Part shown: one piece after another, positions 41,400 through 41,871 of the stretch | How the letters are laid out: each line of letters opens with the position of its first letter | How positions within the stretch are numbered: position 1 is the first letter of the stretch | From: Eledone cirrhosa | Lineage: Eukaryota | Reading direction: 5' to 3' | Assembly (NCBI GenBank): GCA_964016885.1 | Contig: OZ024752.1 | Span: 42,594,001 to 42,658,000, forward strand | DNA length: 64,000 nt | The notes under the pieces: model-generated | The model's database searches: none | Seen by the model: the letters and a program-made list of their open reading frames with translations, nothing else | Told to the model about the DNA's origin: nothing | Translations under genes and position numbers: made by a program

Positions 41400-41492
41400 A
41401 CCGGTATAAGAATCTCTCTGAATAGCTAAGGAAAAAATAAATCTATATATATATATAATATAAGATCAAAAGATGGTTAAAGGAGTTCCATG

Positions 41493-41563
41493 TATTTTAT
41501 TATGCGCATTTCAAAAACAAACATCATCATGCAATAATATTTGTGTTTTCATCAGATAAAACA
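41493..41563 (-). ncRNA. Hammerhead ribozyme motif, left arm (sense to the EEF2K pre-mRNA)
   Basis: Reverse complement of 41680-41750. Confidence 0.8.
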
Positions 41564-41679
41564 GGAGAACATGATATGAAGGCTAAAAAACACTTGTGGA
41601 TAGTGCAGTTTTAAATCAACATATATCTGCATAACTGCACTATCCACAAGTGTTTTTTAGCCTTCATATCATGTTCTCC

Positions 41680-41750
41680 TGTTTTATCTGATGAAAACAC
41701 AAATATTATTGCATGATGATGTTTGTTTTTGAAATGCGCATAATAAAATA
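41680..41750 (+). ncRNA. Hammerhead ribozyme motif, right arm of the intronic palindrome
   Basis: TGTTTTAT-CTGATGA (41688)-AAACACAAATATTAT..ATGATGTTTGTTTTT-GAAA-TGCGCA-TA-ATAAAATA; same family as 7779. Confidence 0.82.
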
Positions 41751-41871
41751 CATGGAACTCCTTTAACCATCTTTTGATCTTATATTATGTATACTCCAGT
41801 CCTACAAACTGTAGAGTGCTTCTTATCCGATATCTGCATTGCTTTATTGTACTACAATAAAACTCACCTCC

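What the first reader, a model, noticed from the sequence alone, without database searches (positions are those of the whole stretch)
41455..41788. Near-perfect 330-bp palindrome puts a sense-strand ribozyme and its exact antisense inside an eEF2K intron
Seen in sequence: arms of about 155 bp around a 22-nt spacer lie between coding exons 2 and 3, and each arm holds an intact hammerhead. In the minus-strand pre-mRNA the antisense arm is transcribed first, so it could pair with the ribozyme as it emerges. Inference: the fold-back may neutralise an otherwise transcript-cutting insertion. It would also form a long dsRNA substrate for ADAR or Dicer, which matters if this is a coleoid cephalopod, where A-to-I editing is extensive (established). 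Editing could in principle loosen the duplex.
Basis: partly seen in the sequence, partly recalled or inferred. Interest (0 to 1): 0.75.

Follow-up and report, generated by a model that had tools for sequence, protein, structure and literature searches.

The report
Back-to-back Penelope transposon ends in intron
This hairpin in an eEF2K intron is a young, ordinary footprint of an abundant Penelope-like jumping gene: two end pieces joined back to back, likely copied from one RNA at both ends of a DNA cut, and its ribozyme is predicted to be nearly inactive alone, so no protective antisense role is needed to explain it.

Summary
The palindrome is real: 156/156-nt arms, a 22-nt centre, a hammerhead core on each strand, in intron 2 of eEF2K. 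The whole 422-bp insert is two 5'-truncated ends (pLTRs) of a Hydra-clade Penelope-like element (PLE), joined head to head in a (TA)n tract. One 24-mer of the arm has 18,367 exact matches in the genome; a 99% identical copy carries an intact 800-aa ORF with the Hydra motifs. The layout is the family norm: 45 of 50 sampled pairs have one tailed and one tailless arm, both arms share subfamily alleles, and 30 of 94 arm starts fall at one site, likely the RNA 5' end. Best model (inferred): both DNA ends prime on one RNA at two fixed sites, and the cDNAs are then joined. The hammerhead is dimer-type, and the two copies are never sense in one transcript, so 'neutralisation' is unnecessary. An ADAR substrate is plausible but untested. 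Inverted pLTRs, one-sided tails and opposite-strand hammerheads are published, and this scan has noted the pattern many times in this genome and once in another.

The parts
41444..41454 (.). Left half of the (TA)n target tract (boundary with the element ambiguous by a few bases)
   Evidence: 114 of 126 terminal ends of the family abut (TA)3
41455..41624 (-). Tailless pLTR arm, element positions -257..-88 counted from the tail end; sense on the eEF2K strand
   Evidence: 99% to locus L051
41493..41563 (-). Type I hammerhead, the sense copy in eEF2K pre-mRNA; core from 41555, predicted cut after 41501; 2-bp stem III with palindromic loop
41624..41624 (-). Hotspot of arm 5' ends (-257); inferred transcription start of the element
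   Evidence: 30 of 94 arm starts at -261..-255; extra G at 13 of 34 such junctions
41625..41632 (.). 8-nt junction insert; 41623-41632 is an exact 10-nt copy of tail bases 41830-41839, likely templated during joining
   Evidence: only these two places in the window; junction 32-mer occurs once in the genome
41633..41788 (+). Tailed pLTR arm, positions -243..-88
   Evidence: arm plus tail 242 of 244 identical to L051
41680..41750 (+). Mirror hammerhead (antisense in eEF2K pre-mRNA); core from 41688, predicted cut after 41742
41789..41876 (+). 88-nt PLE tail, present on this arm only; in tandem copies it runs on into the 5' UTR and ORF
41877..41908 (.). Right half of the (TA)n target tract
42311..42348 (-). 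eEF2K coding exon 2 (38 nt), upstream of the insert
   Evidence: AG/GT ends, frame joins exons 1 and 3
40644..40815 (-). eEF2K coding exon 3, downstream of the insert

Best explanation
The palindrome is a very young, short insertion of a Hydra-clade Penelope-like retrotransposon: a tailless and a tailed copy of the element's end joined head to head in a (TA)n tract, likely made when both ends of one DNA cut primed reverse transcription on the same RNA, and probably near-neutral for eEF2K. Shown: family identity, copy number, layout, TA target, unique junction. Inferred: the endonuclease cuts both strands of (TA)n; one 3' end primes at the AU-rich site -88 and the other at the tail end (0); both cDNAs run towards the RNA 5' end, a likely transcription start at -257, giving about 170 and 244-257 nt; the cDNA ends are joined through short homology, here with a templated insert. 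The hammerhead is a passenger of the pLTR that needs a second sense copy to form helix III, which this locus cannot supply in cis. The duplex in pre-mRNA is a by-product and a likely ADAR substrate.
For: 18,367 exact matches of one arm 24-mer, control 0. Among the first 100 listed, 17 adjacent pairs within 500 bp, all divergent; 0.19 expected by chance. Intact 800-aa ORF with RW, DKT, YRDD, CxCX5C, CxxC and CxH next to a 99% identical pLTR, matching the Hydra definition in PMC8557442. 45 of 50 pairs are tail plus tailless, p 2e-9; 12 of 50 are 400-440 bp like this one. In 36 pairs the arms differ by 2.3% against 7.5% to other insertions, and 103 of 119 differences are private. The tailless arm reaches further 5' in 25, the tailed arm in 7, equal in 9 of 41 resolved pairs, against simple fold-back of one cDNA. 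30 of 94 arm starts at -261..-255, 3 of 94 near the ribozyme cut. Monomer stem III probability about 0.001; two sense copies co-fold into a double hammerhead with an 8-bp helix III. A lizard PLE protein cuts and extends both strands and starts at two sites that bound the tail (PMC11167929).
Against: No RNA data: the start site, expression, editing and cleavage are unmeasured. The extra G is modest (13 of 34, p about 0.01 against 20% background), and the hotspot coincides with a self-complementary hexamer that could favour joins without being a start site. Gene conversion between arms, or two transcripts of one source locus, would also give shared alleles. 5 of 50 pairs break the tail/tailless rule and 20 ends had no partner at the BLAST cut-off. 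The sample is the first 27 Mb of one contig, chosen by one 24-mer. Covariation in the ribozyme stems does not exceed shuffles (308 of 500). The ORF has no Pfam or PDB match, so Hydra membership rests on motifs, not a tree. PMC11167929 saw no difference in start site between strands in vitro.
Confidence: 0.82

Rival explanations
1. Same element, but the second arm arises by self-priming: one cDNA (or an antisense template) folds back and is copied, as proposed for rotifer Penelope.
For: Arms share alleles; a few junctions are perfect palindromes at the -258 hexamer; proposed in PMC3846280.
Against: A fold-back copy cannot reach further 5' than its template, yet the tailless arm does so in 25 of 41 pairs, this one included, and it cannot supply the tail. 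An antisense template does not explain why both arm types stop at -257.
Confidence: 0.1
2. One reading: the antisense arm was selected because it silences an active ribozyme that would cut eEF2K pre-mRNA, with editing as a possible switch.
For: Core intact and the duplex is predicted to block the fold; a lizard PLE hammerhead cleaves when its protein is present (PMC11167929), so assisted activity cannot be excluded.
Against: The layout is the family default; monomer stem III is not predicted to form; a monomer of a related minimal hammerhead was inactive (PMC4209133); the insert is 99% identical to an intact copy, so very young.
Confidence: 0.05
3. Fold-back artefact of long reads or of the assembly.
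For: No short-read contig bridging this junction was listed, which the tool says proves nothing.
Against: Flanks are not mirrored and lead to exons 2 and 3 in order; one arm has a tail and the centre holds a tail-derived insert; other pairs show private differences between arms; contigs of run X1 show other head-to-head joints at the same hotspot (3 joints, one contig each, short sides: weak).
Confidence: 0.02
4. A MITE-like fold-back DNA element that moves as a palindromic unit.
For: Short, near-perfect terminal inverted repeats in TA sites, high copy number.
Against: The junction occurs once in 3.0 Gb; arm lengths vary from about 50 to 3,700 nt and run into the RT ORF.
Confidence: 0.01

Closest known systems
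Hydra-clade EN+ Penelope-like elements, e.g. Hydra-1_Obim (Craig et al. 2021, PMC8557442; section 11, passages and supplement rows seen)
   Same: C-terminal endonuclease, RW and DKT motifs, CxCX5C linker, CxxC and CxH, (TA)n target, hammerhead, inverted 5'-truncated copy, one-sided tail.
   Different: A different family from Hydra-1_Obim (other hammerhead, similar but distinct protein, by eye); unit about 3.7 kb rather than under 3 kb; tail 88 nt rather than 30-40; very high copy number.
[quoted passage not shown]
   Same: Type I, long helix II, tiny palindromic helix III, dimer-type; the paper notes dual motifs 100-700 bp apart on opposite strands.
   Different: Pair 10.1-11.1 is A-U (36 of 58 distinct copies with the common core; G-U in 17) rather than G-C; helix II about 16 bp.
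Poseidon PAc of Anolis (Frangieh et al. 2024, PMC11167929; parts 1-2 of 4 read)
   Same: Two reverse-transcription start sites bounding the tail, AT-rich target, internal initiation near the pLTR-ORF junction, ribozyme not needed for insertion.
   Different: Other clade; in vitro no strand difference in start site was seen, whereas 45 of 50 genomic pairs here use one site each.
Adineta vaga Penelope inverted pLTRs (Arkhipova et al. 2013, PMC3846280; passages seen)
   Same: Head-to-head inverted pLTRs, optional tail on one of them.
   Different: Explained there by self-priming on an antisense template; arm lengths here fit two primings better.
Palindromic Harbinger repeats of Xenopus as ADAR substrates (Porath et al. 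2017, PMC5625713; passages seen)
   Same: Self-folding repeat giving a tight duplex without a neighbour.
   Different: Here the palindrome is made anew at each insertion of a retroelement; editing not shown.

Membership tests
EN+ Penelope-like element | Single ORF with RT and C-terminal GIY-YIG-type endonuclease linked to this pLTR | tested here: met
   L051 800-aa ORF, YRDD at 357, endonuclease-type motifs at 678-705; by motif only, Pfam 0 families
EN+ Penelope-like element | Partial tandems forming pLTRs (pLTR-tail-5'UTR-ORF-3'UTR-pLTR) | tested here: met
   L031, L032, L033, L053; 5 tandem junctions
EN+ Penelope-like element | Inverted 5'-truncated copy and tail at one end | tested here: met
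   45 of 50 pairs; this locus
EN+ Penelope-like element | Hammerhead in the pLTR | tested here: met
   Rfam does not score it
EN+ Penelope-like element | RT groups with PLE/telomerase RTs in a phylogeny | not tested
   no named reference proteins held as usable sequences; 18 unnamed relatives at 29-38% identity
Hydra clade | RWK motif | tested here: inconclusive
   RWT at 37 (RWI in other copies)
Hydra clade | DKG modified to DKT | tested here: met
   DKT at 123
Hydra clade | CxCX5C linker instead of CX2-5CxxC | tested here: met
   659-667; no CX2-5CxxC
Hydra clade | [quoted passage not shown] | tested here: met
   759-762 and 787-789
Hydra clade | CCHH motif absent from the endonuclease | tested here: inconclusive
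   one Cys (682) between the two core motifs rather than two; not aligned to a reference CCHH
Hydra clade | Insertion into (TA)n | tested here: met
   114 of 126 terminal ends
Naiad/Chlamys | N-terminal endonuclease, no canonical hammerhead | tested here: not met
   endonuclease motifs are C-terminal and a hammerhead is present
Non-LTR retrozyme | Tandem head-to-tail non-coding monomers bounded by hammerheads | tested here: not met
   arms continue into the element's 3' UTR and ORF; no monomer arrays among 63 stretches
MITE / fold-back DNA element | Moves as a unit with constant length and centre | tested here: not met
   junction unique, lengths variable
Monomer-active hammerhead | Stable helix III and self-cleavage at low Mg2+ | not testable with these tools
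   helix III predicted at about 0.001; cleavage needs a bench assay

The most novel reading that the evidence does not exclude
PLE integration is obligatorily two-ended on one RNA (one DNA end at the tailless site, the other at the tail, both running off a capped 5' end), so each insertion mints a perfect hairpin; such hairpins supply a third or more of this genome's local near-perfect duplexes and could be a main, so far unassigned source of hyper-editing substrate if the host is an octopus.
Probability: 0.35. Interest if true: 0.6.

Novelty: new member of a known kind. Interest (0 to 1): 0.27.

Why it matters
The locus itself is ordinary: one of an estimated 3,000 or more short palindromes of one family (17 per 100 matches times 18,367; extrapolated from one contig). 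The family statistics bear on a question that PMC8557442 leaves open, how PLEs make inverted copies and tails: they name two priming sites and a run-off point that can be tested in vitro and by 5' RACE. PMC5625713 reports an exceptionally high fraction of near-perfect duplex-forming loci in octopus without naming a repeat; TA-flanked, one-tailed palindromes are a testable candidate (14 of 43 inverted pairs in a blind 380-kb sample).

Tried and rejected
DNA search of the own genome with the arm found nothing because common words are skipped. A genome-wide count of palindromic pairs was not obtained; the estimate rests on the first 100 listed matches. Rfam: 0 matches. Pfam and PDB: no match for the 800-aa ORF. 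Sequencing runs: no RNA holder listed. Laying contigs and one raw run gave saturated repeat depth and no listed piece across this junction; this says nothing on presence, absence or editing. Covariation test of the ribozyme: 95.2% of cells paired but no excess over shuffles; core conservation there is built in by the pattern used to collect copies, and 52 of the 58 distinct copies found are not all used (51 loci copies plus 2 window copies were aligned). Ribozyme-cleaved RNA as the main template: only 3 of 94 arm starts lie near the cut. MITE, retrozyme array and Naiad readings rejected (membership table). No structure prediction or complex job was run.

Full report
Observation. The arms at 41450-41610 and 41633-41793 are 161 nt with one mismatch, in the flanking TA run, around a 22-nt centre. 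The minus-strand RNA folds at -258.9 kcal/mol, z -34.75. Hammerhead cores start at +41688 and -41555; Rfam scores nothing in the window. The flanking exons match eEF2K in PDB and Alpha_kinase in Pfam. Splice ends and frame put the insert in coding intron 2, 42310-40816. The host taxon was not established by any search.

What it is. One 24-mer of the arm has 9,201 + 9,166 exact matches in the 3.0-Gb genome, control 0. Among the first 100 listed, 17 adjacent pairs lie within 500 bp and all are divergent; 29 divergent pairs lie within 5.2 kb. Fetched stretches show the arm is the 3' end of a 3.7-kb element. L051 has an intact 800-aa ORF followed by a 3' UTR, the pLTR and a tail; its last 244 nt match 41633-41876 at 242 positions. 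Four loci show the tandem pLTR-tail-5'UTR-ORF layout. The ORF has RWT, DKT, YRDD, a CxCX5C linker, C-terminal endonuclease-type motifs, CxxC and CxH, which fits the Hydra clade as defined in PMC8557442 section 11. It resembles but is not Hydra-1_Obim (by eye). Pfam and PDB do not recognise it; 18 unnamed relatives have 29-38% identity.

Anatomy of this insert. Counting from the tail end as 0: left TA, tailless arm -257..-88 on the minus strand (41624-41455), an 8-nt insert, tailed arm -243..0 on the plus strand (41633-41876), right TA. Bases 41623-41632 repeat tail bases 41830-41839 exactly and occur nowhere else in the window. The junction 32-mer occurs once in the genome, so the palindrome is made at insertion and does not move as a unit.

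The layout is the family norm. In 63 merged stretches (449 kb) around those 100 matches there are 51 head-to-head pairs and 20 unpaired ends; 114 of 126 terminal ends, window included, abut (TA)3. After dropping one segmental duplicate, 45 of 50 pairs have one tailed and one tailless arm (p 2e-9), 3 are tailless/tailless and 2 tail/tail; 12 are 400-440 bp long. Several unpaired ends show short partner remnants on inspection. Of 94 resolved arm starts (window pairs and the duplicate included), 30 lie at -261..-255 and 3 near the ribozyme cut at -134. The element has C before that site in 45 of 46 continuing copies, while 13 of 34 junctions have G (p about 0.01), as a capped RNA end would leave; that reading, and the likeness of the site to an initiator, are from recall. 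An internal TATA-less promoter is published for Drosophila Penelope (PMC2377424, abstract and passages). In 36 pairs with 80 nt or more of overlap, arms differ by 2.3% against 7.5% to other insertions; 103 of 119 differences are private and only 3 pairs differ at two or more shared sites. The tailless arm reaches further 5' in 25 pairs, the tailed arm in 7, equal in 9, 4 unresolved.

Mechanism (inferred). Both strands of (TA)n are cut. One end primes at -88, where the RNA is AU-rich; the other primes at the tail end. Both copy the same RNA or RNAs of one source locus. Priming on the 5' pLTR gives run-off at -257 and the 420-bp class; priming on the 3' pLTR gives long, randomly truncated arms. 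The cDNA ends are joined by short homology, here with a templated insert. This extends the in vitro result that a lizard PLE protein cuts and extends both strands and starts at two sites bounding the tail (PMC11167929). It disfavours the self-priming model of PMC3846280, since a fold-back copy cannot outreach its template. Against: no RNA data, a self-complementary hexamer at the hotspot, possible gene conversion, a sample from one contig, and no strand difference in start site in vitro.

The ribozyme. Stems I and II form in the isolated arm (probabilities 0.76 and 0.97) but stem III does not (0.001); two sense copies co-fold into a double hammerhead with an 8-bp intermolecular helix III. Across 52 distinct rows 95.2% of cells pair, without covariation beyond shuffles. 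PMC4209133 reports no detectable cleavage by a monomer of a Schistosoma minimal PLE hammerhead and notes dual motifs 100-700 bp apart on opposite strands. PMC11167929 found its hammerhead active only with protein and dispensable for insertion. At this locus the two copies are on opposite strands, so no transcript holds two sense copies. A protective role for the antisense arm is not needed, though protein-assisted cleavage is not excluded.

dsRNA. The 156-bp duplex is a likely ADAR substrate; nothing here tests it. In a blind sample of 38 x 10 kb, 43 non-simple inverted pairs (40 nt or more, 90% or more, within 2 kb) were found; 14 have TA at one end and TA after a 15-140-nt tail at the other (33% against 4.3% for random intervals) and hold 2,916 of 8,068 arm bases. 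Only 2 of those 14 carry a detectable hammerhead in the arms, some overlap, and their PLE origin is inferred from the layout. PMC5625713 reports an exceptionally high near-perfect duplex fraction in Octopus bimaculoides and heavy editing of lizard Penelope; its measure differs from mine.

Novelty. Inverted 5'-truncated copies, one-sided tails, TA targets and opposite-strand hammerheads are published (PMC8557442, passages). I found no paper giving the one-tail/one-tailless count, the run-off site, or PLE palindromes as an octopus editing substrate (searches; listings only, except the papers named). The library lacks most subscription papers, including the older PLE reviews. bioRxiv 10.64898/2026.07.22.740005 was seen as passages only; its supplements are closed. 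Earlier AI notes of this scan reach similar readings in this genome (351 notes fit the look-up) and another; they are not independent support, and my reading was noted. Verdict: new member of a known kind, interest 0.27.

Noticed in passing
window 7668-7887: Second insertion of the same family, 89% identical: a 53-nt tailed arm joined to a tailless arm starting at -257, so no palindrome and an unpaired hammerhead on the plus strand.
   Followed up: yes
window 56029-56199 and 56717-56958: Two more head-to-head hammerhead palindromes of other families; a 32-mer of the first has 3,565 exact matches in the genome. Single related hammerheads at +51810 and -54901.
   Followed up: partly
window 58502-58621 and 52361-52466: Palindromes that turn at the start of another hammerhead; a 32-mer has 4,210 exact matches, with a tandem run about 1.08 kb apart at G000:C1:83.68 Mb. 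Hydra-type ORF pieces lie in 9 of the 40 loci fetched (linkage not checked one by one).
   Followed up: partly
window 52916-53031, 58147-58385, 27242-27525, 6523-6845, 7022-7378: Further long palindromes without a detected hammerhead; the first has relatives with a one-sided tail and TA flanks in L143 and L154.
   Followed up: no
window 41624, minus strand: The inferred element start points along eEF2K towards exon 3; if active it could give transcripts lacking exon 1, which holds the stretch matching the calmodulin-binding region (recalled). Speculative.
   Followed up: no
L051:2192-4591: The ORF is 15% asparagine with an Asn-rich stretch before the linker, recalling the N-rich inserts of rotifer Penelope in PMC3846280.
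   Followed up: no
window 41130-41400 and about 28700-30070: A very high-copy repeat sits directly left of the insert; related 46-bp tandem units occur near 29 kb.
   Followed up: no
L043:1692-9376: A roughly 7.7-kb inverted segmental duplication holding two mirror copies of one insertion and other PLE pieces.
   Followed up: no
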